Assembly (NCBI RefSeq): GCF_036365525.1
Contig: NC_090399.1
Coordinates: forward strand, 15,127,558 to 15,191,557
Source of the DNA: Heterodontus francisci
Taxonomy: Eukaryota
Reading direction: 5' to 3'
Length of the DNA: 64,000 nt
Position 1 is the first letter of the stretch. Every line of letters starts with the position of its first letter. Both the position numbers and the translations under genes were made by a program. A model generated the notes under the pieces. It searched no databases. It had not been told where the DNA came from and saw only the letters and a list, made by a program, of their open reading frames with translations. Shown here one piece after another: positions 17,551-63,257 of this stretch.

Positions 17551-18214
17551 AAAGCGGAGGACTTTACATTTCCCACATTAAACTCCATCTGCCACAATTT
17601 TCCCCTCTCATTTAATCTATCAATGTCGCTTTGCAACGTTCTGTTCCTATTTACACTATTTACTTAGTATATTTACATATTGGGATAACATTTTCTCTGA
17701 TGCGTTTACACAGTCCCTGTACACAGTGACCCAGAGGACCTCTTTTCCTACTTTGGTCAGTTTGTCAGGCTGGTAAAGCAAATAGTTTTGATAATGAGAA
17801 TGAAGATGCAATTACCAAAGGTTTTCGAAGAGACACCGCCTCTACACATTGAAACACTTCTACAACTGGGGAATTAGGAACAGCAGCAGATTTGCACACA
17901 TTTGTAACTAACATGTTGAACAATTATCGGCGGGGTAATAAAGAGCAAGACGATTGGTGTCCTGATACTGTTTCAGATTGCTTAGCGAGAGGGTAAAGGT
18001 ATATCTAGAATCAAGGTTTTGAGGTCTTTCAGGCTTCTTCCCAGAGCTTCATTTGATAGTGGCGTACTCGGCATGATGTGTCTCATATTCAACTGTACTC
18101 GTCTTCGCCCCTTGCTTTTTGTTCACTTTGGCGTATTGCTGGGAAACTGCCTCATCACTGCCACGATTGGAATATACCTAAGAATTATAACAATCAGATT
18201 AAAATTAGATATAA

Positions 18215-25820: not shown

Positions 25821-26672
25821 GTCGCTGTCTTTGGGAGGATGAATTGCATGAGTTCCTCGCACTTGTTAAAAATGAGAGCGTAGGTGGGGAAAGTTCCTTA
25901 AGGTAATAGAGAAAAGGAAACCACGGCTATTGTTACCATGCAGGGTAATCTTTGAACAGTGGGTGGTTTCTGTAAAGGAAAGCGGGCCCTGTAAGAGTTT
26001 AATGTGACAAGTCACATCTGGGAATACATGGCTAATCCGGTTTGTGCCACGTATCGTCATATTTGTCCTCCCTTGGATTTAAGGAAGCAAATATGGGGGT
26101 CATACCAAAGCGATCAAGTGAAATGAGAAATTGTGAAGTTTGTATTAGGAAAAAGGGCACCAAATGCAAATCGCCTTTTCAGATTAGTGTTTCAGAAAAT
26201 TACCATGTCGATAACACTGCCAAAGTATGATGCATGAAGTTGTTTGTGATAAGAGAAAAGACACCTCATTAACGTATGTGTCCTTATATCACCATACTTA
26301 AATGATAAACGTAATCTTTATGTTCATTAGGATGACAGACGCTAACGTTATCCAGTAGGATATATTACCACAATAACAATCCAATGTGCCATCCAATATT
26401 TCCGGGTTAGCTGCAGAATAGCCTGCAAGGTGAATTTACCTCTACTCTGCTTGAACAACACCCCTTCACACAAAGTTCCGAAAAGGGACCCTTACTGTCC
26501 AAGTCTACTTATTTACTCTCGCACCTGATGTCCTCTGTGACTGAGATTGCCAATTCAATACTAAATTGTACTTTTTGGAGCGGTTTTGATGTTGTGGGTC
26601 AATGTCCATTAGGAAGCTGTGAACCCTTGCAGTCAACAGAGAGACAGGAGTCGTTTAGTCCATCAGTCTGGG

Positions 26673-26777
26673 CTATAGGTAAGTCCGGGTCATAATGTGG
26701 GCGCAGCACGTCTCCTTAAGCATTATTATCGATTTCATTACGTCTGGTTTCATTTTATAGGCACTTCCCTTATTTTG
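26673..26777 (-). CDS. NCR3: Candidate exon 7 (QNKGSAYKMKPD…; either reads to TAG at 26673 or splices at 26742 to 26625-26599)
   Basis: gaatgttttag| acceptor in phase 0; open for 34 codons; internal GAC|gtaatg donor possible. Confidence 0.4.
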   Translation of the reverse strand, partial: QNKGSAYKMKPDVMKSIIMLKETCCAHIMTRTYL

Positions 26778-29700
26778 CTAAAACATTCGTAACAGGGAAA
26801 AACCTTCAGAAGCATATTTAGGATATTGAAAATAGGTAGAGAACACAGCAATCCCATCGTTGGAGATAATGATTGGCGAATTACTGCAGCCTCGTTGTTC
26901 ATCGCAACCATCTATTATTGCACATACAAAACATCTCACCATCCAATAACTCTTACTTGTGACGTTGGCTGTGGATTAATTGTTGCTGTGAAAATGAGAG
27001 GAAGGGGAATGGGTCAGAATTATATAATGCAAGACACATTAGCATAAACACACACAGACAGACATATTCATATGTGTCAGTAGAACCTTGCGATCAAATG
27101 AATTTGAATAAAATAATTTGCAACAGTATTTTCATATTTAGCTTGTTTTGATTAACCAGCAATGATAATCAATGTAGAATACATCATGTGAAGGCAATTA
27201 CAGCTCACGTACCATACATTGCGTTGGTCCCACTGTGATTTCTGTAATAAGAGAGATGATATTTGAATTTAAAAATTATGCACGTTAAATTCTGAACAAT
27301 CATCAATTCAATAAGATTTGACATTTCCTGTACCTTTTTAGCCTCAGAATAACTGAAAGAAAATAAGGTAGACGTTAATATAATTGTTTTAAGGTAATTA
27401 CTTGCCGATCCTTTCTCTTATTAAAATATCGTAAAACTGACCGTCAACAAACGCACCCACAACCGAATCGATAGGCCGTACAGTGAATCTGGTCACTATG
27501 TGCACGGACATTATAATGATATTTCCTCCGAATATTATTTCTAATGATGTCCTAAGTGTGTTCTAAAATAATTGTTCATACTATAAGTGTCTCTGATTGC
27601 ACTAGTAACGCTGACAAACTCCAGAAATGCATTAACTGGATGACTCCTCATAGCGGCCAGAGCAATTGCCCCGCATTATAGCGAAAGCGTAATAGTTAAA
27701 TAGGGACCAGCGTGTTTCACAGAGTTACAGACCTTTGTTTTGCCAGATCAGTCGACATGTGAGAATCATTATGGTCATGCCCAGCAACGTGAGCGCACCT
27801 CCCAATAGAAGTAGCAGGTTAATATCCCTGCTCTTTTCTCCCCGAATTCTGCCTGAAATAAGGAGTTGAGGTCAAAAAATTAATATGATAAGCTGAGGAA
27901 AAACGATTTTGTTTGCATCAAAAAAGAGCATGATTGTAAAAATACATCAATAAATCAAGTCTTGCATTTCTCTAGCACCTTTCACGGCCCAAGGAAGTCC
28001 TAAAGCACTTCACGGCCGGTGACGTTCTTTTGAAGTATAGCTACGGTTGTAATGTAGGAAACGCAGCAGCCAGTTTGCGCACAGCAAGATCCCACAAACA
28101 GCAATGTGATAATGAACAGATAATTGTTTTTAGTGGTGCCGATTGTAGGCTTAATATTGTCCAGGGCACCGACGATACCTCCCATGCACTTCGTCGAAAC
28201 AGAGTCATGGGATCTTTTACATTCACTTAACAGGGCAGACATCAATTAGAGTCTTGGTTTAAGGTTTCATCCAAAAGCCGGCACCTCTGGCAGTGCAGCA
28301 TTCCTCCATACTGCCCTTGGATATTTGGGCTCAAGCCTCTGGAGTGGGACCATAATAACCAAAATATCAAAATTGGAACAGATTAGTTCCAACCCTATTC
28401 CGCTACAATTCCCACATCAGCTTTAATAAGAGCATTATCTAGGTACTTCCCCCTACATTAAATTTCATGCTCACTCTGAAGTATTCAAGGATTCTGGTGT
28501 CACTGGCAGCTCCCAAATGACGATTGCTTAACGTTGAGACCAGGGGTAAGACTGGGCACTTGACGCAGCATCACAACCCAGCACAGCCTGCTGGACATTG
28601 GACATGGTCGGGGACGCGACACCGGTGGCATTGCATCGGTAGCGTGATACGCACACTTGCAGTTTTCGGTTCTATTGACTTCAATTGGACTTCAATCATA
28701 TTGACTTCAATAAAATGGAATATTGTGTTGTATAACGGGCTGCAGATGGGATTCGGCATGTTTTGCATCAACGCCAAAGACCAATTTCACCTCCCCCATC
28801 ACCCCCGCCCTAAATGTACACATAAATACAAACACATTCCATGGCATAACATATAAGATTTAAGAATGACCTGAAGGAGTTACTCTGAATGATTTCCCCA
28901 TCCCTGGTGCCCAGATTCCTGCGGCCAATTGTCCTCTGGTTAGTTGCAGTCTGCAAATTGACGCTAGGATCTCCCTGGCCTGTAAAAATCGAGTACGGCT
29001 ATAAAATTATAATACCTGTTTAATAAATGATTACTCTAGGATGCCACTTACGCCTCACTTCCAGTTTGGTGCCATTTCCATCTCTCACACCGGTTTCCAT
29101 TAAGCTTACGCGACAGTAATAGGTGTCTGTATCTTTCTCAATCAAGTCGGAGATATTGATGAATATTCTGTTGTTGGTAAATGAATCACTGCCCGATTTT
29201 TCCAGCCGACCTTCATAAAATGGACTCTTGTCCAGTTTGTACCCATCCGGTTTACCCCGTGTCCAGTGAGCAGTGCCGATCAAGGTTACGTTTCCTTCAA
29301 AGTCCAGAGCACAGTTCAGTGTCACCGACTCCCCCTCATCTGCAGTTCGAAAGGGAGGGAACTGGAAAACGGTGACACTTATCTTTCCACCTGCTGAATG
29401 GAAACACTTTAACTTTAAAGGTGATAAGTAGTAAACGTCATTCCTCTCTAACGCTGTCTGACAATTGCCGTTGGTAAAGGTAATTATCATTTTACATTAT
29501 ACAGATATCGAGATGAAAAGTACAACAGCAGTCATTGGAAACGTCAAACACATTACACACAGGCAGGACGTGCTCTAGATATCTAGCAAATCAGTCAGGC
29601 TCTGAAGAGAAGGACAGGTTAGCGTTTGGTTGAGTTGCTCCGCCTTCTCGTCTGAACCAAGAGCTAAACTAATAAAATTCAAGTGTAGATCAATTACCTG

Positions 29701-32060
29701 TGATATTGAATTCTATGAAATTGATATTTTCATTATCCTCGTTCATTCAACCACTGTTTTCTAATTCCAGTTGTTTTCTACCAATGTGGGACAAAATAGA
29801 ACTTGTTTTACATTTCGCCTTAGGCGTTCCTCACTTTACAAGGAACTACAGCAACATTTGTAAAATGGTGCGAATTTGAAAGAAGTTCTGTGATGAGATG
29901 CCGATATGTAAACACATAGTCAGCCACTTATTTGGTTCAGCCCGTGGTGTTATTGACTTCGCGTGAAATCTGACAAGTAAACAATGATATAATGTCGTAA
30001 ATGTTGGTTCTATATTTTGGCAAGAGGAAGTTGTTACGCTAACGCTCCGTCCTTTATTTCAATTAAGGTGTTAACCTATTTATGTCGAACATGTGAACGT
30101 CTTCCCTAAGATTGACGAAAGATGCTGATATCATGTCAGCATGTGATCCGTCTCTTTACATTGTGCTTATTGCTGCAGCCACGTCTCATTCCACATGCGC
30201 AGAACATTGGGAGAATCTAGAACAAGGGGGCACGATATTAAAATTAGAGCGAGGCCGTTAAGGAGGCAAATCGGGAAGGTCTTTTTCACTGGTCATCTTT
30301 TAATTGCCAGTGGGATGATTTCCTCCGCTTTATCTGTGGTGACATTGTAAACAAATGCGTCGTGTGTTCCAATGTTTCTGACAAAAATTCTATAGTTTGA
30401 TCAGAAATTTCAATGCCGAAAAAAATCTCACTATATTTGCGAAATCGGTACCCAGCTGAATGAGCGGAAATAATCCCCAGTGGCCATAAAAATGTACGTG
30501 GAAAATCCCAGAACACTGTGGGCGTAATTTTAGCTTTTGGCGATAGTGGGACACAACAGATATCAAATTCGCTGCCCATTATACACATCACATCCGTACA
30601 CAAAATTAAAATAATAATAATGGTGTATTATTTCTTGTAGTTCATATTCCGATTCCGACTGATAAGATAATAGCGGAAATTTCCCTGCACGCCCAGTATG
30701 TCTAAGTTAATAAACTTAGACTTGAGATGCAGACAATGGGTGAGGTGGGCATCAGGACACAATCAGAGAACCCAGGAGCATTGCGAGTCATATAAAAAGG
30801 AAGACAGGGAACGAGTAAGACAAATGCACAGATGAACAGTGAGATACTGTAAGTAATCGGAGGAGATGCTGAGTAGTCGACGGGAGAATGTGGTTGAATA
30901 TCAGAGCGTGGCATTGAGAAAGCAACAGCAGAAGAGAAACAAAAAGGCAAGAAGGACAGGGCTAGAAAAACATAAATGAGAAGAAGGGGACAAGCAGTGG
31001 GGCAGCTATAGGATTTAATACTGCTATATTGCTTTAATTTGGGATATGAACAACGCGCAAGAACTGCTTGTTCTGATACTGGGAAGAGACAATTATTTGC
31101 ATGCAGTACAACTTTTTTTTCGCGGTGGGCCGAAGGTCCTGTTTCTACGCTGTACGACTCAATGGATTGGTAGAAAGAGCCTGGTGTCGCCAGAAAATTT
31201 TGTGGAACACATAAAGGAAAAGGCTCACAAGGGGATGTTCACTGATGATTACACAGTGTTCAATTCCATTGGAAATTCCTCAGATAATGAAGCAATCCAT
31301 GCTGGCAGGCAGCAAGACCTGGACAACATCCAGGCTTGAGCTGACAATTGGCGAGTAAAAGAAGTGCCAGCGATGCTCACATCTCGGGAATGAATTAAAA
31401 ACAAACGATTATGCGTTTATAAATGTAAAAAAAACGCTGAACTTGTATAGCTCCCCCATCACATCGTCGAATTGTATAAAATTGATTCATAATTACTTGT
31501 TTTGGAGTACAGCCACTGCTGTCATGAAATCAAATGCAGCAGTCAATTTATGTCAGGAACATCCCACAAATGGCTTAAACCGAATGAAGATTTTCGCCTG
31601 GAATTTCTGTTCACTCCATCTCCCGGCGTAACTTCGGCGGAAGATCGGGTAAAAGAAATAACAACCAATCTTCCACGCAAATTACGGCGGCGACCGAGAG
31701 AAAGTCTCGAACACACTGTAATCTCACTTAGAGGAGCCTGGTCAATTGCTTAACACAGTGATATCACTATTTCTTAGTTAATGCGCCAGCTTTCTGTAAG
31801 CTGCAGGGGGTAAAATTAACAGTTGATACCCATGAGCCTTTTTATGACTATTTCAAATAGTAAAATTATCAGTTAGAAGCTGAAAATGCTTTCTTAAAAG
31901 CAAGTCTAGTTTTTGCAAGATTTTAAAATTTAAACTAACGGTATTTTCTCGCCTATCGCCATTCTCCATAAGAGGCAACAACAAAAAAATCAATGAACTC
32001 ACCCGTGCATATTGCAAAGAAAATCAACAGCATTGAAGTGGGCTGTTGACTTAATAGCAT
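26673..32060 (-). CDS. NCR3: NKp30/NCR3-like single VJ-Ig-domain type I membrane receptor (spliced; about 218-232 aa depending on the last exon). Family member, 1:1 orthology not established
   Basis: Exons 32060-32003, 29390-29052, 27852-27733, 27352-27334, 27241-27213, 26985-26957 and 26777-(26673), all with GT-AG sites and compatible phases. Product: MLLSQQPTSMLLIFFAICTG-GKISVTVFQ…C…W…YYCRV…GNGTKLEVR-RRIRGEKSRDINLLLLLGGALTLLGMTIMILTCRLIWQNK-VILRLK-RNHSGTNAMY-ATINPQPTSQ-QNKGSAYKMKPD…. Confidence 0.8.
26957..26985 (-). CDS. NCR3: Exon 6, 29-nt cytoplasmic micro-exon (ATINPQPTSQ)
   Basis: ctctcattttcacag|CA ACA…CAA|gtaaga, phase 1-0. Confidence 0.65.
27213..27241 (-). CDS. NCR3: Exon 5, 29-nt cytoplasmic micro-exon (RNHSGTNAMY)
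   Basis: tctctcttattacag|A AAT…TAT G|gtacgt, phase 2-1. Confidence 0.65.
27334..27352 (-). CDS. NCR3: Exon 4, 19-nt cytoplasmic micro-exon (VILRLK)
   Basis: ttattttctttcag|TTATTCTGAGGCTAAAAAG|gtacag, phase 1-2. Confidence 0.65.
27733..27852 (-). CDS. NCR3: Exon 3, stalk + transmembrane
   Basis: ttatttcag|GC…AAA G|gtctgt, 120 nt, phase 1-1; INLLLLLGGALTLLGMTIMILTC hydrophobic helix. Confidence 0.85.
27956..28350 (-). mobile_element. DeuSINE (SacSINE1/AmnSINE1-like) in intron 2
   Basis: Deu-domain and tail: gtaaaagatcccatg…tgtttgtgggatcttgctgtgcgcaaactggctgctgcgtttcctacattacaac…aatgcaag. Confidence 0.8.
29052..29390 (-). CDS. NCR3: Exon 2, VJ-type Ig domain of the NKp30-like gene
   Basis: cattcagcag|GT…AGG C|gtaagt, 339 nt, phase 1-1. 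B-strand C, C-strand W, DTDTYYC and J-like GNGTKLEV in one exon; aligns by eye to human NKp30 (VSQPP…EG…C…IGSVTW…GRL…YVCRV…GNGTRLVV). Confidence 0.93.
31227..31405 (+). mobile_element. Zenon-like LINE scrap in intron 1
   Basis: GMFTDDYTVF…QQDLDNIQA plus tail remnant. Confidence 0.7.
32003..32060 (-). CDS. NCR3: Exon 1, leader peptide of the NKp30-like gene
   Basis: aagATG CTA…MLLSQQPTSMLLIFFAICT + G|gtgagt; 58 nt, phase 1, matching the V exon; hydrophobic core MLLIFFAIC. Confidence 0.75.
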
Positions 32061-32560
32061 CTTCTGTGTATTTGTGAAGAGGTTGGAAGTAATAGAATCA
32101 ATGGCGCCAGCAAAGTCAGCAAGGTGAGAACATTTAGCACCAACCCACACAGAGTGCGAATGGAATTATTTGCGGTTTCCAGTTGAGAACACAGGATACA
32201 CCCACACTTCACTGCTGCACAGAATTAAAAGCTTTTAGTCTTTAGAGCAGATTTTTTTAACTTCACGAGTCATGTAAGAATGCAGCGTTGATGGAGTTTG
32301 ATAAGCACACATCATAGGAAATATAGCACCGATAGTATCGATTAGCCATGCTGTCATTTGCGCGGTTTTATAATTAGACTGTAAGTTCCATGTCCCTAAA
32401 TTGCATATTGCTCAATGATGATGGTTTTGAAGCTGAATGAAGGGGCGGAAAGACGCGACAGACGTGACCCAAAGTTTACATTCAGCTAATCATAAATCTG
32501 TGATTTCAGCGCCAATATTACCGAGGTAATGCTAATGATTTTCTATTGGGCCGAGCCACC
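32061..32560 (-). promoter_or_regulatory. Putative proximal promoter of the NKp30-like gene
   Basis: Unique sequence upstream of the leader ATG with ETS-like GGAAGT (~32085), RUNX-like TGCGGTT (32171-32177), GGGGCGGAA (~32442) and CCAAT/ATTGG (~32512, ~32545); motif presence only. Confidence 0.3.
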
Positions 32561-32637
32561 GCCACGTGTCAACAATGAACATCTTGACAGAAACTCCAGC
32601 TCCTGTACAGGTTTGCAGTAATCGGGTAACTGTATCA

Positions 32638-33045
32638 GCCGTGGTTCAGGGGATCGCATTCTTGCCTCTAAATTGGGAGATTGTGAATTCAAGTTCAGCT
32701 GTAGCAGACTTAAGCACCAAAACAAAACTGATCTTACGAGAGCGCTGCACTGCCGGAGGTGCCGTCTTTCGGATTCGAAAATGCACAGAAGCGAAAGGTA
32801 CCCCTTTAGGTGAACATGAGGGCCCTATGGCGCTGCTCTGAGCAAGTGGCGTTGTGCTCTGGCCGATATTTATCCTCAAACAAAAACAGATTATCTGGTC
32901 ATTATCTCAATACTGTTTGCGGAATCCGACTGTGCTCAAATTGTATTTTCCTCCAGTGCAACAGCGGCTGCATTTCACAAAGTGCTTCATTGGCTGTAAA
33001 GCGCAGAGGCACATCGTGAGAGGCGTTATATAAATGCCAGTTTTT
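32638..33045 (+). mobile_element. DeuSINE (SacSINE1-like)
   Basis: tRNA-like head, gctgcactgccggaggtgccgtctttcggat Deu core, tail gttatataaatgccag. Confidence 0.8.
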
Positions 33046-33367
33046 TTTATTTTAAACTGTCGATGACTTCGCCTGAAACCAAGAGACAGATGGAATCATG
33101 TTGGATGGCGCGATATGCTGTGCTTGAGTGCAAATCCGGTACTGATTATAGTCAGAGACAAATCAATATAAGCCATTCTTGGCCTTTTCTTTGCAGTTGC
33201 AGCCTATATACAGTGCAAAATCATTTATATTAGTTCTGCTTATTTATATTATCGGACGGATGGTTCACAAACATAATTCAGTTCTAAATTATTAATCCTC
33301 CATTCCCCAGTTTATATTTTTTTTCAGTAACGCACGCTTTCACATACAAAGCTACTAGTCAAATGCA

Positions 33368-34620
33368 GAATCACAAAATCACAAAATTGTTACAGTGCAG
33401 AAGGAGGCCATTCGGCCCATCGTGTCCACACCGGCTCTCCGACAGAGCAATTCACTCAGTTCCATTCCGCTCTCTTCTCCCCGTAACCCTGCAAATTCTT
33501 CCTTTTCATATAATTGTCTAACTCTCTTTTGAATGCTTCGATTGAACCTGCCTCCACCACACTCTCAGGCAGCGCATTCAAGAACTTAACTACTCAGCGT
33601 GAGTTTTGCCAAATGTCACTTTTGCTTCTCTTACCAAGTACTTTAAATATGTGCCCTCTCATTCTCAGTCCTTTCACGACTGGGAACTGTTTCTCTCTGT
33701 CTACTCTGTCCAGACTCTTCATGATTTTGAATTCCTCCATCAAATCACCTCTCAGCCTTTTCTTCTCCAAGGAAAACAATCCTAACTTCTCCAATCTATT
33801 TTCATAACTGAAATTCCTCATCCCTAGAACCATTCTTGTGAATCTTTTCTGCACTCTCTCCAATGCCTTCACATCTTTCCTAAACGCCCAGGACTGGATG
33901 CAATACTCCAGATGAGGCCAAGCGAGTGTCTTATACAAGTTCAACATGACTTCCTTGCTCTTGCATTCTATGCCCCAATTAATGAAGCCCAGGATACTGT
34001 ATGCTTTATGAACCGCTCTCTCAATCTGTCCTACCACCTTCAATGACTTATGCACATATACACCCAGGCCCCCCTGCTCCTGCACCCCCTTTAGAATTGT
34101 AACTTTATTTTATATTGTCTGTCCGTGTTCTTCCTACCAAAATGAATCACCACTTTTTTCTCCATTGAATCTCATCTGCCTCCTGTCTGCCCATTCCACC
34201 GATTGTCTGTTTCCTTTTGATGTTCCACACTATTCTCCTCACAGTTCACAATGCTTTTAAGTTTCGTATCATCTTCATACTTTGAAATTGTGCCCTGTAT
34301 ACCAAGGTTTAGGTCATTAAAATATATCAGGAAAAGCAAAGGTCCCGACACTGACCCCTGAGGAGCTCCACTACAAACCTTCCTCTAGCCCTAATAACAT
34401 CCATTAGCCACTATTCTTTGCTTCCTGTCACTCAGCCAATTACATATCCATGTTGCTATCATACCTTTTATTCCATGGGCTATAGGTTTGCTCACATGTC
34501 TGTTGTGTGGCGCTGTATCAAATGCCTTTTGAAAGTCCATGTACCACACATCAACGGCGTTACCCTCATCAACCCTCTCTGTTACCTTCTCAAAAAAACT
34601 TCAGCCAGTTAGGTAAACAT
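33368..34620 (-). mobile_element. CR1 RT/3' fragment
   Basis: ORF 33594-34085, LYKTLAWPHLEYC…RLRGDLME. Confidence 0.88.
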
Positions 34621-35440
34621 TATTTTCTTTATTTGTTCCATGGAATGTGGGCATCACTGGCTAGGCCAGCATTTATTGCCCGTCCTTAATTGCCCGCGAG
34701 AAGATGGTGGTGAGATGCCTTCTTGAACTGCTGCAGTCCATTTGGTGTAGGTACAACTACAGTGCTGTTAGGAAGGGAGTTCTAGGATTTTGACTCAGTG
34801 ACAGTGAAGGAACAGCAATATAGTACCAAGTCAGGATGGTGTGTGGCTTGGAGGGGAAACTGCAGGTGGTGGTGTTCCAATGCATTTCCTGCCCTTTTCC
34901 TTCTAGGTGGTACAGGTCACGGATTTGGAGTGTGCGGTCTAAGGAGCCTTGGTGCATTGCTGCAGTGCATCTTGTAGATGGTACACACTGCTGCTATTGT
35001 GCATCGGTGGTGGAGGGAGTGAATGTTTGTGCATGGTGTGCCAATCAAGTGGGCTGTTTTGTCCTGGGTGGTGTCAAGCTTCTGGAGTGTTGTTGGAGCT
35101 GCACCCATCCAGGCAAGTGGAGAGTATTCCATCACACTCCTGACTTGGGCCTTGTAGATGGTGGACAGGTTTTGAGGAGTCAGGAGGTGAGTCACAGGAT
35201 TCCTAGCCTCTGACTTGCTCTTGTAGTCATGGTATTTATATGGCGACTCCAGTTCAATTTCTGCTCAGTGGTAACCCCTAGGATGTTGACAGTGGGGATT
35301 CAGCAATTGTAATACCGTTGAATATCAAGGGGAGATGGTTAGATTCTCTCTTGTTGGAGGTTCCCATTGCCTGGCACTGATGTGGTGCGAATGTTACTTG
35401 CCATTTATCAGCCTAAGCCTGGATATTTTCTAGGTCTTGC
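34621..35440 (-). mobile_element. CR1-Zenon-like LINE 3' part
   Basis: TIYKAQVRSVMEYSPLAW…HSLHHR; tail at the left end. Confidence 0.88.
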
Positions 35441-35449
35441 TGAATTCTT

Positions 35450-36800
35450 CCCCATCTGATCCCTTAGCACTAAGGCAGTCCCAGTCAATATTAGGGAAGT
35501 GAAAATCACCTACTATTACAACCCTATATTTCCTACACCTATCTTGATTTCCCTACACATATGCTCCTCCAATTCCCTCTGACTATTGGGGGGGCCTATA
35601 GTATAATCCCATCAAAGTGATCACCCCTTTCTTATTTCTAAGTTCTATCCCTATGGCCTCGCTGGACGTTCCCCCCAGGATATTCTCTCTAAGTACTGCC
35701 GTGATGTCCTCCCTAATCAATAGTGAACCCCCCCCACCCCTCCTGTCTTACCTACATCTCTGTCACGCTGGAAGCATTGGTACCGGGAGCATTGAGCTGC
35801 AAATCCTGCCCATCCCTCAACCACGTTTCCGTAATAGCTATAATATCACAATCCCATATACCGATCCATGCTCTGAGTTCATCTTACCTGTAAGGCTTTT
35901 TGCATTAAAGTAAATATAGTTTAGCCTGCCAGACCTTCCACACTCCTTGTCCTGCCCCTGCCCCTGCCTGGCCTGCCTACTGGACTTGCTTACTTTAACC
36001 TCTACATTTGTCTCAACTATCTCATCAGAGAGACTACTACTTTGGGTCCCACCCCCCACCCCCCCCTACCAGACTAGTTTAAACCCTCCCGAGTACTACT
36101 TGCAAACCTCCCCGCAAGGATATTGGTCCCCTTCCAGTTCAGATGCACCCTGTCCCTCTTGTGCAGGTCACCTCTGCACCAGAAGAAATCCCAATGATCC
36201 AAGTAGCTGTAGCCCTCCCGCCTACGCCAGCTCTTCAGCCACACATTCATTTGCCTTATCCTCCTATTCCTACCCTCACTAGCACGTGGCACAGGGAGTA
36301 ATCCTGAGATTACAACCCAAGAGGTCCTGCTTTTTAACCTTCTGCCTAACTCCCTATATTTACTTTGCAGGACCTCATCTCTCTTCCTGCCTACGTCATT
36401 AATACCAATATGGACCACGACCTCTGGCTGCACACCCTCACCTTTCAGAATGTCCTGCAGCTGCTCCGAGACATCCTTGACCCTAGCACCAGGGAGGCAA
36501 CATACCATCCTGGAGTCTCGTTTGCGGCCACAGAAACACCTATCTGCACCCCTTACGATAGAATCCCCAATCACTATAGCTCTTCCACCCCTTTTCCTCC
36601 CCTGCTGTGCCCTCCGTGGTGCCACGAACTTGGCTGTTGCTGCTTTCCCCTGGGAGGTCATCCCCCCCCTCCCCCCCTCCCCCCCCCCCCCCCCCCAACA
36701 GTATCGAAAGCGGTATATCTGTTTGAGAGGGGGATGGCCACAGGGGACTCCTGCATTACTTGCCTGCGCCTACTATTCCGTTTGGTGGTCACCCATCCCT
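35450..36800 (-). mobile_element. CR1 ORF1 esterase + start of ORF2
   Basis: AIVIGDSIVRG, VVVHIGIND, VHLNWKG; then YFNAKSL…. Confidence 0.88.
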
Positions 36801-38773
36801 AAAATCATGTTAGTTTCGTCAGCCATAATACATTGTCTTAAGTGCACACTATCTGTTCGCAATCCGGTTATTTCATTTTTTGCGTTCTTCGAGTACCTTT
36901 ATTGTCGACTTACATCTCAAAAGACCTTAGTTTGGGATTTTCCAGTCACCGTGCATTAACAGGCACAAGGTGACGTTGATGTACCTCATTCCGCTGTTTC
37001 AACCCCCTGGGCCAAAGTAATGTCCTTCTGCCCTGCCCTTTCTCAGGTCGATCGCCCATGACATGTCCGTCCTTGCGCACTTTCTGAACCTTGTCGACCC
37101 GCTTTCCCCTTCTTGTCCGTTTCCCATTACCGGGAATCAACAATTTGTGTCGTTTACAGAAGTGTTTGCAACACTTTATTCCCAATCGAAGAGCTCACAG
37201 CCTTTGATATCCAAAATGATCAACTCCCAGAGCCGGGTAACACGCCGAAGAATAAGGAGGAACTCGAGATGGGGGTGGGGGGGGGGGGGGGGGGATTTCA
37301 CATGATGCTGCTGGTGGGAGTGGGGACCAAGGGCTTTGATCTGAAGCTGGTGAGGGAAGGTGATAGAGTCTGAGGGGGAGGTGGGTTGAACTCGTTGGGC
37401 AGAGTGAGAGTTGTGGGCCGAGGAGTGCATGGAAAGGAATGAGGCTGATTGTATAATGGCGTGAAGTCAAAGTGGAGAGGGTGATTGACTGCAGAGTTCA
37501 GGAGAAGAACAGGTGAGCTGATATGAGTTCCACGCTGAGCAGATGGGGTAGAAGGGGAGCTGGGAAACATAGGCAAAGAATCATTGAGAAGGGAGGAACG
37601 GCATCTGCTGGATGGCCTCCCATCTTCAACTTTTCATGAGCTCATTCAAAAGATAAACTGAACTGAAGACAAAAGATACATAGCACTAATGGGAAATGAG
37701 ATTGTAAAATGTACTGGGCGGGATCCAATGTGAAACATCACTTAGTGGTCAAGCGTACATTTGTCTTCGGACTTCCAATTTGACTTAATTCTTGTTATTT
37801 AACGGAGGCAGTGATCAATAACTAGGTTGTAGTATAATACAACTGGGAAGATGGAAATCTGTGTATTTTAGCGAGACAGAACATTAAAGGCCACAAATGA
37901 GAGGGGACAATCTTGCCATATGGTGCATTGGTCAGTTACTGTAAAATGATTGTTGCATTAGCGTCAATATGCATCCTAAATTTCAGGAAGAGTATGTGGG
38001 TTTGATGTGATTAATATTTGCAGAGATGGAGGAATTCTCAATTAGATTTGAAGCAATGAGACAATTTGGCATTTCCCCCAAATTTACCTGCAGGGCCAAT
38101 ATAACGAAAAGAAATTGTTATGTATTCAGGTACCTGATCTCAAATATTTCATTTGTCGCGGTTGCTTAATGAAAATCGTGGATATGGTATCACCAAATTC
38201 GCATCCGTTGATGCAAATACAATGGCGTCACAAAATGCGTATCATTTATGTTCTTGAGAGGATAACTAAAAATGGCGTGAAATTTAACGTGAATGTCGTA
38301 TTAAGGTCATAATTGGTCACATTGTCGGTAAGTTCAGTGAAGGCAGGACTGTAAACGTGTTCGTCATTGAATTGAAATGCTGCTGATGTTGAGATTCTCA
38401 TTTTACACGTAAGCTCATTTACATCGACAAGCCTTGCAAACCGACCTGTCTGCATGCGGTTGGTTTACTTCGTACGTGACTGCGCTCAGATCAGCGTCGA
38501 GTCTGTTCAGGCTGTCTGCTGCTCGGCATGTTAGTTATTTTCCAGTCAGCGTCACTATTTATAATACTCTGTCCGCAAAGCGTGCACTTTAGATCCGCTT
38601 ATTGAACCCACTACGGACAGAAAGTATCTGTGAGACAGAGCTCAACTCTATCTCAATACAATTGTACACGATGTTCAGAGAACGGCACTTAAAAAAAAAC
38701 ATTCTTGGTATGCAGGTGTCACATTTAATACCTAATCCTGGTTACATTCGGAAGGTGTAGATTGGGCAAAGTC

Positions 38774-39073
38774 ACGGCACAGTAGTTAGCACCACAGCCT
38801 CACAGCTCCAGCGCCCTGGGTTCGGTTCTGGGTATCGCCTGCTTTGCAAGTTATCCCGGTGACCTCGTGGGTTTCCTCCGCGTGCTCCGGTTTCCTCCTA
38901 CATGCCAAAGACTTGTGGGTTGATAGGTAAATTGTCCATTGTAAAAATTGCCCCCAGTGTTGGTGGGGATGTGAGAGGGGAAACATGCGATTAATTTAGT
39001 ATAAATGGGTTCTTGATGGTCGGCGTGGGCCGAAGGGCCTGTTTCGGTGCTGTATTTCCCTCTCTATGACTCT
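38774..39073 (+). mobile_element. HE1-type V-SINE (inside an older minus-strand copy of the 1181-type SINE, ~38700-39370)
   Basis: ggcacagtagttagcaccacagcctcacagctccag… and V-domain; right flank reads as the reverse complement of the 1181 SINE core/head. Confidence 0.8.
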
Positions 39074-40471
39074 AAGGTGGTCTGGCACTTCAAAGCGTAG
39101 TTAAGTATCAACCGCTTTGGACTGGGACTGGAGTTACATTTTGGCCAGGCCCTGCAAGGATTCGTTCCCTTCGGACATCAGTGAACCAGTTGTGCTTTAC
39201 AACAACAGCTTCAGTCACTTTGACCAATGCTAATTTTTTCTTGACATTTTGTTTTTAAAAAACAACTTAAATACTCAATTTGCTTTGATGGCGATTTGAA
39301 CTCACCCTTATTCAGGTTATCAATCCAACCCTGTGTATTACTAGTCTAGCAACATGTCCACCTCACGACCGCTGCTAACAGGAACGGAAGACCCGATCCA
39401 GATTCATGCCAAGTGCGCAGACCCTTTAAATAGAAGCAATTCATTTATTATCAAACGCTTTATTTGTGAGCATCTCTTCCAAACGTTTTTCGCAAACAAC
39501 TTTCAGTTCAAATACACAATCCCTTTCTGTGCAGCAGCAGACACAGTTATGATACTGTTCATGTATCAGGCTGGGATGTTTTAATACTGTGGATGCCGGA
39601 TACCCTCAGCGAGGTCCTACAACACAAGGGAGAAGATGCGCGTTTCTCTGAAAAGCAGAACCATCGAATTGCTTGTAAGGCAAGTGAAGGTATCTCAGGG
39701 GTGCCCTGCACTTCATGTATGCAGCAGCAAGCTGGGTTGGTCATGCCCTGAAAGGAGCATCACGTGTTATTAGATGAATTGCCGGCATCCTTTCCAGCCT
39801 GTGCTCTTCCCCGCCCGATCATCCGCCCGTGAGGAGGGAAGCGGAAATCTCGCACGAACTTTCTAACATTCCAGACAGTCTTTTCAGACGGAAGTTTGCG
39901 TTAGTGCATTCAGCTATTTCTTGCAAAGGTCAGCTGGTCACTCAAAAAAGGAAATGGATCAATTTAAAGAGGAGTTTTCCAGACTGGAATTCCCACCGGG
40001 GCTGTGGAATTCAGACACTGCTCAGCACCAGTGAAAATGCGCTGCAGGTGGCCAATCGACGCACGCATTAAAATACAGCACATGAATGGCTCGACTGATC
40101 TTTACTAATTTCCCCATTTACACACAAACTTCACGGGTTCAGTGTATTTGTCACGTTGGAGACGTCCGAACTCCGGGACCACAGCCGGGGGCATTTAGTA
40201 AGACTGTCGCAGCTAAATAAGAAGTATAAAAACGTCTGATAATAAGATTCAAACATAAGCAGCGTTGCAATAAATGAAACTCGCAGGTGAACGCAATTGA
40301 AAGGAGATTATTTTTATATGGACGGTACTCTCGGAAACCAAATAATCTCGCACCTTTTATTTCAAGGCGTCTCACTTAGGTATGATGAAATTTTTATTTT
40401 TGGTTATCGTTTGAAAGACTTGAAATTCAATACGGTCGGGTCTAAGGACAACTAAGCTTACTTTCTAAGAG

Positions 40472-40812
40472 GTCAGAGAGTGAATCTCACTGTTTTCCAG
40501 TATGCTGACACACAAATTCAGTAGAGGGAGAGTGAAAGCTTCTGAAGTGCACCATGAATTTTGCAGAAATGGGGTTCACTGTTACATGGATACACAGTTA
40601 CGTGGACAGGGGCTGAAAGAAACACTGGTGATTTGGACGAATAATACATTTCTAAAGGGTGGCTTGAGAACTCGGACATCGGTTCATTTAACAACATTAG
40701 AAAGATCATTATGGCCTCCGGCCTGGTGGAGAGAGTCTCAGAGACCTGTTTCTGTGGAATGTAATGGCAAAGTGATAGGGAGGTAGCAACGGGAACAGAC
40801 TGCATGCGAGGG
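40472..40812 (+). pseudogene. Disabled NKp30-like VJ exon, inverted paralog of 29052-29390
   Basis: ag|GT CAG AGA GTG AAT CTC ACT GTT TTC CAG (cf. ag|GT GGA AAG ATA AGT GTC ACC GTT TTC CAG). Across frameshifts it reads QRVNLTVFQY…VEGE*KLLKCTMNFAE…GYTVTWT…DLDE*YISKGWLENSDIGSFNNIRKIIMASGLVERVSETCFCGM*…GSNGNRLHAR G|gtaagt; 341 nt vs 339 nt. Confidence 0.85.
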
Positions 40813-41109
40813 GTAAGTGGTAACTGTAGTTTTCATATAATGCTGTTTTAAATGTTAGTTTATTTTTTAATAAAATATAGGGGTTGATTTAATCTTGCAA
40901 GCCGGATATGAACGAGTCCTTGTGGATCGATGCCCGTTAGAGAAACCGCGGAACATTCATTTGATTTGATGACAAATATCGATGCAATGTAACCCTGCAG
41001 CAGAACAAGCGAATTTCTGATCATTCCTTCCCCATTAAAACGTGTATTATTTTATTTCATTAATGTTCTTCCTCGTTAAGTGCACAAATATGTTTTCTTA
41101 GAGCCCCGA

Positions 41110-41685
41110 GTAAATACTGTATGAAACGTTAGATAGGCCACAGCTGGTGTACTGTGTGCAGTTCTGGGCACCACACTATAGGAAGGATGTGATTGCACTG
41201 GGAGGTTGCAGAAGAGATTCACCAGGATGTTACCTGGGCTGGAGCATTTCAGCTATGAAGAGAGACTGAAAAGGCTAGGGTTGTTTTCCATAGAGCAGAG
41301 AAGGCTGAGGGGGTACATGATTGAGGTATAAAAAATTATGAGGGGATTTGATAGGTTAGATAGGAAGAAACTTTTTCCCTTAACAGAGGGGTCAATAACC
41401 AGGGGGCATAGATTTAAGGTAAGGGGCAGGAGGTTTAGAGGCGATTTGAGGGGAAAAAAACTCGCTCAGAGGTTGCAATCTGGAACACATTGCTTGAAGA
41501 GATGGTAGAGGCAGGAACCCTCACAACATTTAAGAAGTATTTAGATGAGCACTTGAAACGCCATAACAAACAAGGCTACGGACCAAGTGCTGGGAAATAA
41601 GATTAGAATAGTTAGGTGCTTGATGGTCAGCACAGACACGATGGGCTGAAGGGCCTGTTTCTGTGCTGTATAACTCTATGACTGG
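41110..41685 (+). mobile_element. CR1 3' fragment
   Basis: LVRPQL.YCVQFW…LGLFS…; tail gggcctgtttctgtgctgtataactctatg. Confidence 0.88.
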
Positions 41686-41780
41686 CAAAATCAGTCATCT
41701 TAAGAAGGACGAAGTAAGCAGACAGACGGTCATCAATTTAACTCATGTTCTACAGGACCTACTGGCATTTCTGCCTTTCC

Positions 41781-42330
41781 TTTCCCCAAAAGTATACTAT
41801 ATTCATTAAATTTGTAAGACATGCATTGCAAAACATTTCAAATTGGACATTTTAGAGAAGTGCAATAGAGATCAGATTCTTTCGATACAGCACACGAGGT
41901 GCCTCACAGCTCTTGCTATTCCATTTTATATACAATGTACATTTGCAATACGCAGCAAATACATTCTCTGGTGCATACCGCCCGAGGAGTTTTGTACAGG
42001 TTCCAGCCCTGTTTGGGACCTTACACAGAGGCCTTTCCCCATTGAGCCTTTGCGGCAGCTGCCCCAAGCTTTAGTGCGTCCCTCAGCACGTAGTCCTGGA
42101 CCTTGGATTGTACCAGGCTGCAACACTCGGTCATGAACAACTCTTTGCGCTGGAAGACCAGCAAGTTTTGGGCAGACCAAAGCACGTCTTTCACCGAGTT
42201 GATGGTCCTCCAGTAGCAGTTGATGTTTATGTCGGTGTGCGTCCCTGGGAACAGCCTGTAGAGCACAGAGTCCTGTGTTACAGAGCTGATGAACCTCCAC
42301 AAAAACCACTGCATCTCTTTCGAAACTTGC
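41781..42330 (-). mobile_element. Tx1/L1-clade LINE 3' end
   Basis: VLYRLFPGTH…CYWRTINSVKDVLWSAQNLLVF…VQDYVLRD C-terminal ORF2 pattern, followed by an AT-rich 3'UTR. Confidence 0.7.
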
Positions 42331-43360
42331 CTGTTGTTATTGTCATACTCACACTAAGAAAGCAGTGGTGAACTAATTATATGTACCTTTGCAAATTGTT
42401 TATTTCAAGAGGTCATCTTTCTGGTTATGCGGGCCGTAATTGTAGTTGTTGAGGGCTGTCAGAGGAATATAAGAGTTGGGGGAGGTAAATACTTTTATAA
42501 AGTGTTGTTCAGTTCAATATTTTTATCCAGTTGGTATGTGAACAGTTACATACGATTTCCCCAGAAACGTGGAACAAGGAGAATCCTAAATAACGCTGTT
42601 AGAATGCTGATACATGGGATGAAGGGTTTCAAGGGATGTGTGGAAAGGAAATGAGAGTTCCCTCAAAAATCGGATCATTAAGTGATATGGGGAGATGCTC
42701 ATGCCTGAGGACTGACGGCTGAGTGGTCTTTTCTGCCTCTGGATTTTCTCGGTTGTATGCGTTCTGGTTTTATTTAGGGATAAACTAAATAAATAGTCCA
42801 TCTGGATTTTTTAAATTATTATTTTAAATTACGATTTGGTCATTTTTAGTAAGGTTGAGTTATTGGTTGCTGCCTTCAAGATATGAAGGTTCATTAAGTT
42901 CTTTTGGTTCTATCTCTACAGATTTTAATCACATTCTGAACAAATTTGATTTTAGACCAGAGGAAGTCGGCCCTGATTATACAACCAGAATAATTGAATT
43001 GATATGAATGGAACTTCCTTACAACTTTTCTGAGGCCGAATCTATGTTTCTGGAGCTGGTTGAATTGTGTGAAATGTCATCCATCTCAGTCTGGTACTGC
43101 AGCGAATACAACGAAAGACATGGGACAGGTGGCAAGAGAATTGTATTCGTTTTTAACCTTCTAAGCGAGAATCCAATGTTTAAAAGCGCAAGGGAGAGAA
43201 TAGAGCCAATAAAGTATCAAATAGTTGAGTCTCAATGTATGTTTGAAAATCCTTAGATTACAGGAGGAATAGAAGACAGAGGAAGGTATTAAGTGTTCCA
43301 CATTTTTGAAAACTTGGAGAGGAATATGATAGCAGAGGAGACATTGCCATGTGTATAGTA

Positions 43361-43432
43361 CCCCTGGTGCTCTAACGGGTAAGGTACTGGCCTCTTAAGT
43401 CAAGCGTATGGGTTCAAATGCTCTCTAGGGTG
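43361..43432 (+). pseudogene. Degenerate tRNA, tRNA-Arg(CCT)-derived
   Basis: cccctggtgctctaacgggtaaggtactggcctcttaagtcaagcgtatgggttcaaatgctctctagggtg is colinear with vertebrate tRNA-Arg-CCT as recalled; stems mismatched, anticodon now CTT. Confidence 0.55.
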
Positions 43433-43454
43433 CTGTCAATATTTACAGTCAACC

Positions 43455-43830
43455 CTGGCTCAATGGGGAGCAATCTGGCCTCTGGGTCAGAAAGTTATTG
43501 GTCCCACTCCAGAAAGTCGAGCACAACAAATCTAGGCAGATATTTGAGTGCGGTACTGGTACAGAGCAATCGGAGATGCCGTCTTTCAGATGAGACGTTG
43601 AACCGAGGCCCCGACTGCTCTTTCAGATGCCTGTAAAAGATCCTGTGGCACTATTTCGAAGTACAGGAGGGAGGTGATCCCTAAATCAACTTCACAAAAA
43701 AAGAGTGTTGGGCGCAAGTTTACTGCTGCGTTTCCTACTTTGCAACAGTGACTACACTTCAAATAGTCACTGTAAAGCGAGTTGGGAAGTCCTGAGGTCC
43801 TGAAAGGCGCTATATAAATGCAAGTCTTAA
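43455..43830 (+). mobile_element. DeuSINE (SacSINE1-like)
   Basis: gatgccgtctttcagatgagacgttgaaccgaggcccc…gtaaaagatcc…aaaggcgctatataaatgcaagt. Confidence 0.85.
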
Positions 43831-44490
43831 TTTATTTTTTCATTTGAGTACATTGGAGAAACTCTGAATCTACTGTGCATTTGAAGAGAATGCAAAATGA
43901 AAACAAACGGTTTACCTTATACCTAAAATTACAGGGAGGAATATAGGAATTATTAAATATCAGAAGATTTTTAAGTACAATCGGAACCAAAAAAAAATTG
44001 ATTTATAATATAATGTTGAGACCGGCGGAAATTTGAAAATAACTGCGTCTTGGTAGCACCGACGTTATAATGCACTATCCGATGAATTAAATTCTGTAAC
44101 TTTGTGGTTATATAAATACTTTATAGGTTAATGTTAATAAACAACAGCAGGTTGACCAGTTTACAGTGTTAAATGGAGAAAATTGATTCCTTCATTGGCC
44201 GTCAGCAGAGTATCAAAAGTGCAAGTGCACACAAAATCCATCAGTACTAGGGTCAAATTATATATAACGTTACAGGTAAAAGGAAAACCTGCAGCTCTGA
44301 AATCGAACCAAAAAAAAAAAACGTTGCAAACAAACAGCAGACTAGTGTCAGGGCGTGAAATTCAGTTTCAGCGACAGTGAAAAAATGTGAGTGATTCGGC
44401 CGCCCAGTATACTCCCAGCTGGATTGTCCTTTCCAACACTCTGGAAGCAAGTTGAAAATCTACCCAAATAAATCGATGGATCGAGTCATT

Positions 44491-44830
44491 ATGAGCAACA
44501 ACACTAGGCTGTGCTTACAAAACGTGGAATACTATTGTCATAATTACACAATACATCAATAGAACTTGCTCTTTGATCTTTGATGACAAAGAACTGTCTA
44601 ATAGAATGAAGCTGTCAATTCGTGTGATGTATTTGTAGATACATCTTCAAATATACATTTCCAGGCTTTCTTGACTAAATTCATCGAAATGCTGGTGACA
44701 AATGCAATGAATGGAAATTTATTGCTGTATTTAAAGGATTGCGAAGCTGGAAAATCAGGATGCTTGCAATGAATTGCAGAGGTAACACCATGAACTAGTC
44801 CACAATCCACCAACTGCACATCGAGTGACT
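44491..44830 (+). pseudogene. Possible highly decayed B7-family-like IgV exon
   Basis: One frame reads QNVEYYC(44536)…L**QRT…MNGNLLLYLKDCEAGKSGCLQ*(44770)IAEVTP. TGA codons sit at the expected Trp (+15/16) and second Cys (+78) positions; no clear splice sites. Confidence 0.3.
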
Positions 44831-60490: not shown

Positions 60491-61125
60491 TCAATTCAAT
60501 TCAGTTAGTTGAAGGGCATATTGTCTTTAATAAACATATATGGTCCAATTGATGTCTCGTGCTGATAAATTTTAGGCACTGTCTTAAGATGGAATTCCAT
60601 GTTTTTAATTATTTTTTTCAAACTCTTCCACTCTGTGAAGCCATTGCACATCTTTTTTATCCCCTCCATAGATTTTCATCTTCACCGTGTGAAGGGTCAC
60701 TTCATGGATATCATCGTCCGCCCTTTAAGGACACGATCGGATTTCCATTGCGTGCATTACAATATAATGTAAATAAGGCGAGTGCTATAAAGGTCGGGAG
60801 ATCCTGTCGGCCAGATTACCACCCGAGCTGGTAAAGACAAAATTCATTCTCGCCCTAAGTTTGCGGAGGTCGCCATTGTTGATTTCGGGACTGAAATTGA
60901 TTTAAGTCGATAATGCAAAGAGAGGAGTCCGTTTTACATCCCTTTAAGAGAAAATACAAACAGCTAGAGTGTAAGGCAGGCTGCGGTTCGGTATTTCCAG
61001 ATTCGCACCATCCAAGACCAATTTCACCACCTGCATTAGTTGGGATTGCTGTGCAGACTCTGGCCACAACATACGTATGGTTGTTCCCTGTTCTGGGAGC
61101 AACAGTATGGAAATCTGTCCGTTAT

Positions 61126-62112
61126 GTTCCACAGGGTAGTGTCCTAGGCCCAACCATCTTCAGCTGCTTCATCAATGACCTTCCTTCAATCATAAGGTCA
61201 GAAGTGGGGATGTTCGCTGATGATTGCTCAATGTTCAGCACCATTGGCGACTCCTCAGATACTGAAGCAGTCCATGTAGAAATGCAGCAAGACCTGAACA
61301 ATATCCAGGCTTTGGCTGATAAGTGGCAAGTAACATTCGCGCCACAAAAGTGCCAGGCAATGACCACCTCCAACAAGAGAGAATCTAACCATCTCCCCTT
61401 GACATTCAATGGCATTACAATCGCTGAATCCCACACTATCAACATCCTAGGGGCTACCATTGACCAGAAACTGAACTGGAGTAGCCATATAAATACCACG
61501 GCTACAAGAGCAGGTCAGAGGCGAGGAATCCAGAGGTGAGTAACTCACCTCCTGACTCCCCAAAGCCTGTCCACCATCTACAAGGCACAAGTCAGGAGTG
61601 TGATAGAATACTCTCCACTTGCCTGGATGGGTGCAGCTCCAACAACACTCAAGAAGCTCGACACCATCCAGGACAAAGCAGACCGCTTGATTGGCACCCC
61701 ATCTACAAACATTCACTCCCTCCACCATCGACGTACAGTGGCAGCAGTGTGTACCATCTACAAGATGCACTGCAGCAATGCACCAAGGCTCCTTCGACAG
61801 CACCTTCCAAACCTGTGACCTCTACCAACTAGAAGGACAAGGGCAGCAAATACATGGGAACACCACCACCTGCAAGTTTCCCTCCAAGTCACACACCATC
61901 CTGACTTGGAACTATATCGCTGTTCCTTCACTGTCGCTGGGTCAAAATCATGGAACTCCCTTCTTAACAGCACTGTGGGTATACCTACCCCTCATGGACT
62001 TCAGCCGTCCAAGAAGGCAGCTCACCACCACCTTCTCAAGGGTAATTAGGGATGAGCAATAAATGCTGGCCTGGCCAGTGACACCCACATCCCCTGAATG
62101 AATAAAAAAAAA
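61126..62112 (+). mobile_element. CR1-Zenon-like LINE, 5'-truncated
   Basis: VPQGSVLGPTIFSCFINDLP…GMFADDC…; poly(A) tail. Confidence 0.9.
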
Positions 62113-62189
62113 TGTTCCATACATTGCGTTACACTCGGGCGTACGGTGATTTCCCAATCCACGCTTTCATTCCATTAGCGTATACACTC

Positions 62190-62870: not shown

Positions 62871-63257
62871 ATTGGCTATGGTCCTCTGCTACTCTTTCAA
62901 GTGTCGTTTGGTCATTTTGGAAAGCACGACAATCATAAGCTTCAGCAGTGGCCAAATTAACGTCCGGAAATTCTTCCATTGAGATTAGAACAGGCCGGCT
63001 ATCGAACCTAAGATTCTCCATTCTTTATTGCTTAAAGGTACGCCGGGCGGATGCTAAATGGGCATCAGTAAAGCCTATTGTAAGTTCTTTTTTATTATTC
63101 CAAAATCGCTCTCAAGTCACTAAGAACACTCCATTCCAGTACCGTCATACTGTTGTATAGTACACATTAATAACGTTTCTAAACGGAAACATTATTTTTT
63201 CTCAATAAATTAAGTGCTGCATCCTTGTATCCTTATTCAAGAACAAACCATTCGACT

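What the first reader, a model, noticed from the sequence alone, without database searches (positions are those of the whole stretch)
26599..44830. Overall: compact NK-receptor module (inhibitory NKp30-like gene, divergent dead paralog, possible ligand relic)
The intact gene and the pseudo-V are well supported by the sequence; the activating TM and the B7-like relic are tentative. Together they suggest a paired-receptor locus sharing an ~8-kb divergent upstream region, now invaded by CR1/Zenon copies. This is my best candidate for an undescribed system in the window.
Basis: partly seen in the sequence, partly recalled or inferred. Interest (0 to 1): 0.7.

Follow-up and report, generated by a model that had tools for sequence, protein, structure and literature searches.

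The report
Shark NKp30 gene facing dead activator
An already annotated horn-shark NKp30-like immune receptor gene, likely inhibitory, sits head-to-head with a broken relative whose supposed 'ligand relic' is the remains of two tail exons that, in an unbroken neighbouring copy, are predicted to give the receptor its own built-in activating signal.

Summary
The intact gene is real and already annotated (horn shark NCR3-like, RefSeq XP_067865596). Its last exon lies at 18049-18177, outside the finding. The head-to-head pseudo-V (40468-40818) is real. The module is not compact: it is one unit of a triplicated block among 15 open NKp30-like V exons in 650 kb on the MHC chromosome.

There is no B7 relic. 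The stretch 44595-44813 is 66% identical to two small tail exons of a paralog about 100 kb away (gene D). In D's open five-exon model they encode YMGL-x7-YSEL, split by a phase-0 intron like a classical ITAM, behind an uncharged TM. The dead gene was therefore probably an ITAM-tailed activator. D's V exon is about 90% identical to the inhibitory-type genes, but its leader and TM only 59-64%: a borrowed ectodomain, as in CEACAM paired receptors.

Expression of D is not shown, and the window gene's ITIMs are non-canonical. A shared promoter is unsupported. The scan noted similar shark NCR3 pairs on other DNA. I could not read the key paper (Kinlein 2021). Verdict: known family, with a possibly new ITAM-tailed variant.

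The parts
32003..32060 (-). Gene A1 exon 1, leader of RefSeq isoform X1 (alternative first exon of X2/X3 at about 29699-29746)
   Evidence: 100% match to P0004/P0001; GT donor
29052..29393 (-). Gene A1 exon 2, single germline-joined V-J Ig domain, NKp30-like
   Evidence: Pfam V-set 4e-10; top PDB hits NKp30; AG/GT sites
27733..27852 (-). Gene A1 exon 3, transmembrane exon with no charged residue in the hydrophobic core
27334..27352 (-). Gene A1 exon 4 (19 nt)
27213..27241 (-). Gene A1 exon 5 (29 nt)
26957..26985 (-). Gene A1 exon 6 (29 nt)
18049..18177 (-).
   Evidence: 100% match to RefSeq proteins; motif scan
33368..36776 (.). Block of LINE fragments between the two genes, including an esterase-type ORF1 (CR1-type, name recalled)
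   Evidence: 5 or more copies in 650 kb; Pfam GDSL hit
40468..40818 (+). Pseudogene B1 V-J exon with stops and frameshifts; splice acceptor and donor kept
41117..41684 (.). LINE 3' fragment inserted in B1
   Evidence: 50-69 overlapping matches in 460 kb
41689..41720 (+). Possible 5' end of the B1 transmembrane exon (weak: short match, not tested against shuffles alone)
41786..42330 (-). Second retroelement fragment (Tx1-like by recall; no Pfam hit), apparently splitting the B1 TM exon
42302..42378 (+). 3' half of the B1 transmembrane exon relic, donor lost; homolog of the uncharged TM exon of paralog D
   Evidence: score 62.5 vs shuffle max 66 of 60 unmasked; 64 vs max 61.5, 0 of 500 shuffles reaching it, after removing the insertions
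44595..44813 (+).
   Evidence: 66% identity to D, E=3e-18; score 144.5 vs shuffle max 57.5 of 200

Best explanation
The window holds an annotated horn-shark NCR3 (NKp30-family) gene that likely inhibits, facing a broken paralog that likely was an activating receptor with its own ITAM tail, inside a large duplicating NCR3 cluster. SHOWN: seven-exon gene A1 equal to the RefSeq protein; uncharged TM; three tail tyrosines; pseudogene B1 with V, split TM and tail-exon relics in collinear order; a three-fold duplicated block; paralog D (C29:15261327-15270994, plus strand) with an open 209-codon five-exon model ending in YMGL-x7-YSEL; D's V exon about 90% identical to A-type genes against 59-64% for leader and TM. 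INFERRED: A1 binds a cell-surface ligand and recruits SHP-type phosphatases through degenerate ITIMs. D-type receptors would signal through Syk/ZAP-70 directly, without CD3zeta/FcRgamma. D took its V exon from an A-type gene by conversion or exon-scale recombination between inverted genes, so A and D would see the same ligand with opposite output. B1 lost this role early (its exon-a donor loss is shared with the copy in block 3, so it predates the triplication) and then collected retroelements. No ligand gene is in the window.
For: (gene A1). (24 of 25 V matches on C29; 15 open V exons, one truncated and the pseudo-V in 650 kb). (59 of 64 class I and 2 of 2 class II alpha matches on C29). (triplicated block). 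(ITAM exon relic). (D model open; AG acceptors on exons 2-5, GT donors on exons 1-4). (exon b, D vs block-3 copy: 5 synonymous and 6 non-synonymous codon changes in the ITAM frame, 1 and 10 in each other frame). (V vs TM/leader identity; D groups with A3 at 90/96). PMC4536121 passage: a classical ITAM is split by an exon boundary in the first tyrosine module. PMC5112662 passages: conversion limited to the ligand-binding exon between oppositely oriented ITIM and ITAM genes. Orthologs of A1 carry canonical ITIM/ITSM (3 of 3).
Against: No transcript or protein record of D was found: 0 of the 43 hit rows is D, so D may be unexpressed or itself decaying. Its leader donor is GTTAGT. D's ITAM lacks the acidic residue at Y-3 of the consensus. 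None of A1's three tyrosines fits the ITIM/ITSM pattern. No ITAM in 25 of 25 shark NCR3-like proteins; 1 of 55 (P0072, unnamed, no clear TM) has a loose match. Support for the horn-shark A+D clade is weak (84/74). Four-fold-site differences D vs A (3-6 of 40-48) equal those of A1 vs A3 (6 of 43), so the transfer is old, not ongoing. The TM relic is only moderately significant. An earlier scan note (e1-9571153) doubted an ITAM-like tail in another shark NCR3 gene.
Confidence: 0.7

Rival explanations
1. Ordinary birth-and-death cluster: A1 is the only working gene of this subtype, and B and D are all decaying copies, so no living paired system exists here.
For: B1, B2, B3, D1 and D2 are broken or deleted. 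A3 has lost a donor and one exon. No database protein for D.
Against: D is open across five exons with intact splice sites. The ITAM frame shows a synonymous excess. A second, independent V-sharing pair exists in the cluster.
Confidence: 0.22
2. A1 is not inhibitory but an adaptor-type, weak or decoy receptor, because its tyrosine motifs have lost the hydrophobic Y-2 residue.
For: AMYATI, QQYAKV and AEYATI all fail the pattern. RefSeq isoform X4 has a frame-shifted tail (P0006).
Against: All three tyrosines and their +3 hydrophobic residues are kept; orthologs have VEYATI, TEYATI, IHYAKV, LHYAKV, VQYAKV; the TM is uncharged.
Confidence: 0.25
3. One reading: a compact receptor-plus-ligand module with a charged-TM activator and a B7 relic under one shared promoter.
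For: Head-to-head layout is real. B7-superfamily genes do lie on the same chromosome: 23 of 42 C2-set_3 matches.
Against: The nearest such match is 3.0 Mb away, and the one V domain tested looks CD276/MOG/butyrophilin-like. No Ig signal at 41-46 kb. The stretch is explained as tail exons. No B1 leader found.
Confidence: 0.03

Closest known systems
Shark NCR3 family (nurse shark QTT61901/QTT61902; MT914154-914161 as cited in PMC12227049; Kinlein et al. 2021, title seen in reference lists only, content recalled)
   Same: A1 is the horn-shark counterpart of nurse shark QTT61901 (V 75% identical, same tail layout). Multigene family on the MHC chromosome.
   Different: The ITAM-tailed B/D subtype was not among the database proteins retrieved; whether the paper describes it could not be checked.
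Human NKp30 (NCR3/CD337)
   Same: One germline-joined VJ domain, best structural relative, MHC-linked. By the alignment, 4 of the 11 B7-H6 contact residues tabulated in PMC3135353 are identical (I50, G51, S82, F85).
   Different: Human NKp30 is a single gene with a TM arginine that uses CD3zeta/FcRgamma (PMC6514059 passage). A1 has no TM charge and a tyrosine tail; D has no TM charge and a predicted ITAM. L80, L86, E111 and G114 are not conserved. Arg-TM members lie in the 31-Mb cluster.
CEACAM1/CEACAM3-type paired receptors (PMC5112662 passages)
   Same: ITIM and intrinsic-ITAM members in opposite orientation, with similarity limited to the ligand-binding exon; ITAM split by a phase-0 intron.
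   Different: Unrelated gene family. Function and pathogen binding are established for human CEACAMs but only predicted here. The transfer here is old (about 10% divergence).
Xenopus XMIV MHC-linked V genes (recalled; the library search for the term found no relevant paper)
   Same: Recalled as an MHC-linked NKp30-related cluster with ITIM and charged-TM members.
   Different: Recalled activators use TM charge, not an ITAM of their own; not checked.

Membership tests
NCR3/NKp30 family | Single-exon, non-rearranging V-J domain most similar to NKp30 | tested here: met
NCR3/NKp30 family | Linked to the MHC chromosome | tested here: met
   59 of 64 class I and 2 of 2 class II alpha matches on C29, the nearest 17 Mb away
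NCR3/NKp30 family | Orthologs in other sharks named NCR3 | tested here: met
Mammalian-type activating NKp30 | Arginine in the TM for CD3zeta/FcRgamma coupling | tested here: not met
   A1 and D TMs uncharged
Mammalian-type activating NKp30 | Binds B7-H6 | not testable with these tools
   4 of 11 tabulated contact residues identical; no shark B7-H6 sequence in hand
ITIM inhibitory receptor (gene A1) | Canonical I/L/V/SxYxxL/V or TxYxxV/I motif | tested here: inconclusive
   0 of 3 tyrosines fit in A1; 3 of 3 orthologs fit
Classical ITAM (gene D and relic B1) | YxxL-x7-YxxL split by an intron in the first module | tested here: met
   criterion from PMC4536121 passage
Classical ITAM (gene D and relic B1) | Acidic or Asn residue at Y-3 | tested here: not met
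   Tyr at Y-3, Asp at Y-5 in D
Classical ITAM (gene D and relic B1) | Expressed with this junction and recruits Syk/ZAP-70 | not testable with these tools
   no transcript in hand
Paired receptors | Similar ectodomains with opposite signalling modules | tested here: met
   A vs D V 83-89% protein identity, predicted motifs only; A1 vs the dead B1 only about 31%
Paired receptors | Exon-limited homogenisation between inverted genes | tested here: met
   tract from about 220 bp before the V exon to its donor
Paired receptors | Shared ligand and opposite function shown | not testable with these tools
   needs binding and signalling assays
B7 family (claimed relic) | IgV or IgC exon homology | tested here: not met
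   positive alternative identity

The most novel reading that the evidence does not exclude
Sharks have an NKp30-family activating receptor that carries its own ITAM and needs no adaptor chain. It is paired with ITIM-type siblings through a borrowed V exon, so one MHC-linked cluster uses three activation routes (TM Arg, TM Lys, intrinsic ITAM). The window's pseudogene is a fossil of that subtype.
Probability: 0.4. Interest if true: 0.6.

Novelty: new variant of a known kind. Interest (0 to 1): 0.36.

Why it matters
NKp30 is a germline-joined VJ receptor discussed as a relative of the antigen-receptor precursor (PMC10751288 and PMC12227049 passages). In mammals it signals only through adaptors. 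A shark member with its own ITAM, paired with inhibitory siblings, would show that the family explored adaptor-free signalling and CEACAM-like pairing. It would also give a concrete pair (A1/D) for finding the ligand of shark NK-like cells. The finding as first written, a receptor-plus-ligand module, does not hold; the gene itself is already annotated.

Tried and rejected
B7 relic: Pfam on 24 frames; tblastn with 210 proteins. DNA alignment of 9 B7/butyrophilin-like exons on both strands: 16 of 18 at or below the shuffle maximum, 2 slightly above it in 30 shuffles (62.5 vs 60; 44 vs 40.5), taken as chance.

Leader of B1: pattern search gave one weak candidate at 37946; alignment with the D, E and A1 leaders was at shuffle level.

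Charged TM at 42409-42484: about 13 hydrophobic residues, lies in sequence aligning to D's intron.

Expression: no RNA holder on record was listed. Three guessed-RNA contig sets of one sample covered only repeats of the D locus; this is no evidence either way.

ITAM exons behind gene E: none found. The representatives search was crowded by multi-domain proteins.

The D model and my two trial starts used a wrong V acceptor; one search is the correct one. The A1 and E rows of the TM table were out of frame; corrected. A notebook line saying no shark protein had a charged TM was wrong: P0007 has a TM lysine.

Literature: 9 searches listed no held paper on shark NCR3 signalling motifs. Kinlein 2021, Flajnik 2012 and Ohta and Flajnik 2015 are not held, so absence from print is not established.

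No structure or complex was predicted: the fold is not in doubt and no ligand sequence was in hand. The names CR1, Zenon and Tx1 could not be tested.
Full report
Setting. The window is C29:15,127,558-15,191,557 of a 6-Gb genome. The V domain matches RefSeq NCR3-like proteins of Heterodontus francisci, isoforms X1-X4, from a contig of the same length. C29 carries 59 of 64 MHC class I and 2 of 2 class II alpha matches, so it is the MHC chromosome. MHC linkage of NKp30/NCR3 is stated in PMC10751288 and PMC12227049 (passages).

The intact gene (A1). Seven exons on the minus strand (32060-32003, 29393-29052, 27852-27733, 27352-27334, 27241-27213, 26985-26957, 18177-18049) add up to 726 nt, the 241-aa protein P0004 plus stop, with AG/GT sites. 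The finding starts at 26599 and so misses the terminal exon. The V domain's four best PDB hits are human NKp30. The TM is uncharged. The tail has AMYATI, QQYAKV and AEYATI; none fits the ITIM/ITSM pattern, whereas the nurse shark, bamboo shark and smooth-hound orthologs do (which examined 25 of 40 proteins then held; 3 isoforms and 12 non-shark proteins were left out). Inhibition is therefore inferred from orthology and the uncharged TM. By the alignment, 4 of the 11 B7-H6 contacts tabulated in PMC3135353 (passages) are identical, so B7-H6 binding is open.

Not compact. A search with the V domain gave 25 matches, 24 on C29: 12 at 14.8-15.4 Mb and 12 at 31-32 Mb. A profile scan of 650 kb found 15 open V exons, one truncated copy and the pseudo-V. 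The stretch 17.7-45.9 kb belongs to a block present three times, giving A1, A2 and A3 (V 93% and 84% identical to A1).

The pseudogene (B1). The plus-strand V at 40468-40818 is about 60% identical in DNA to the four closest V exons, scoring about 190-210 against a shuffle maximum of 51. It has stops and frameshifts but keeps its splice sites. A TM exon relic follows, apparently split by retroelements: a weak 5' piece at 41689-41720 and a 3' half at 42302-42378. The 3' half is marginal unmasked (62.5 vs max 66 of 60) and exceeds all 500 shuffles once the insertions are removed. Its homolog is uncharged. The Arg-containing frame just behind it aligns to intron. No leader was found, and 44% of the 8.4 kb between the genes is repeated, so a shared promoter is unsupported.

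The 'B7 relic'. No Ig signal was found at 41-46 kb. B7-superfamily C2 exons are on C29 (23 of 42 matches), but the nearest is 3.0 Mb away, and the one V tested resembles CD276, MOG and butyrophilins. Instead, 44595-44813 aligns at 66% to C29:15,270,802-15,271,014 (E=3e-18; 144.5 vs shuffle max 57.5 of 200), and a third copy lies in block 3. In own-genome DNA searches the relic found only itself and the block-3 copy, and the D exons only themselves and one short flank, so it is not a dispersed repeat.

Paralog D. That target is two small exons of a plus-strand gene about 100 kb away. Leader, V, TM and the two exons join into an open 209-codon model ending YMGL-ELEDVDT-YSEL-HR-stop, with a phase-0 intron inside the first module. 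PMC4536121 (passage) gives this split as the rule for classical ITAMs; D lacks the acidic residue at Y-3. Between D and the block-3 copy, exon b shows 5 synonymous and 6 non-synonymous codon changes in the ITAM frame, against 1 and 10 in each other frame. A search for intervening exons gave only one weak candidate and candidates inside a repeat. B1 keeps the stop position but has lost the exon-a donor (also lost in block 3), gained 2 nt and changed the second Tyr to Cys. So B1 most likely was an ITAM-tailed activator that died before the triplication (inference).

Borrowed ectodomain. D's V exon is 89.7-91.5% identical in DNA to A1-A3, but its TM exon is 62-64% and its leader 59-64% identical. 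Homology runs from about 220 bp before the V exon to its donor. In a V tree D groups with A3 (90/96) inside a weakly supported horn-shark clade (84/74), apart from other sharks' orthologs. D faces opposite to the A genes. This is the pattern described for CEACAM paired receptors (PMC5112662 passages). Four-fold-site divergence equals that of A1 vs A3, so the event is old. A second pair exists: a gene at 15.42 Mb shares 5.1 kb at 94.7% (V 98.8%) with the triple-ITIM gene P0012 but has a Lys-bearing TM like P0007. Arg-bearing TM candidates follow 2 of the 9 V exons examined in the 31-Mb cluster.

Limits. No protein or transcript of D was found (one search is uninformative). No ITAM occurs in 25 of 25 shark NCR3-like proteins, and one loose match without a TM in 55. 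Other shark genomes could not be searched. Kinlein 2021, Flajnik 2012 and Ohta and Flajnik 2015 were seen only as titles in reference lists; their text or supplements may already describe these tails. PMC6514059 was read in passages. Earlier scan notes report similar pairs and tyrosine exon doublets in other shark DNA; they are unchecked leads and were seen after the ITAM reading was made.

Verdict. Known family and an annotated gene. The ligand relic is refuted, and the paired-receptor idea is right at cluster scale by another mechanism. The ITAM-tailed NCR3 subtype is the only possibly new element. Interest 0.36.

Noticed in passing
G000:C29:15418500-15425700 (minus) vs 14969400-14978400 (plus): Chimeric gene: leader and V 94.7% identical over 5.1 kb to the triple-ITIM gene P0012, joined to a Lys-bearing TM of the P0007 type; a classical paired-receptor candidate in opposite orientation.
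   Followed up: partly
G000:C29:31.0-32.0 Mb (L069-L077): Second NCR3-like cluster next to class I genes; two TM candidates carry an Arg near the outer face, like mammalian NKp30.
   Followed up: partly
G000:C29:2.7-12.1 Mb (L061-L067): At least 22 butyrophilin/B7-like C2 exons on the MHC chromosome; one V tested resembles CD276/MOG/BTN.
   Followed up: partly
L002 (C29:15204848-15204966) and L006: A2 has Glu-Arg in its TM in place of Gly-Gly. A3 has lost the exon-4 donor, exon 6 and the terminal Tyr but keeps LHYAEL.
   Followed up: partly
C29:15192140 and 15223459; window 60516-63261: Orphan copies of the D-type leader and upstream region whose V and TM exons are deleted.
   Followed up: partly
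L010 (C29:15282606-15288283): Gene E: leader, divergent V with a degenerate J end, and an uncharged TM starting like D's; no tail exons found.
   Followed up: partly
window 37388-38738 and 39815-40235: Non-repetitive sequence 78-86% identical to block 2; possible regulatory DNA.
   Followed up: no
window 6943-8691 (minus): 583-codon open reverse-transcriptase frame of a LINE, unusually intact.
   Followed up: no
protein P0072: Unnamed two-V protein with a loose ITAM-like tail match and no clear TM.
   Followed up: no
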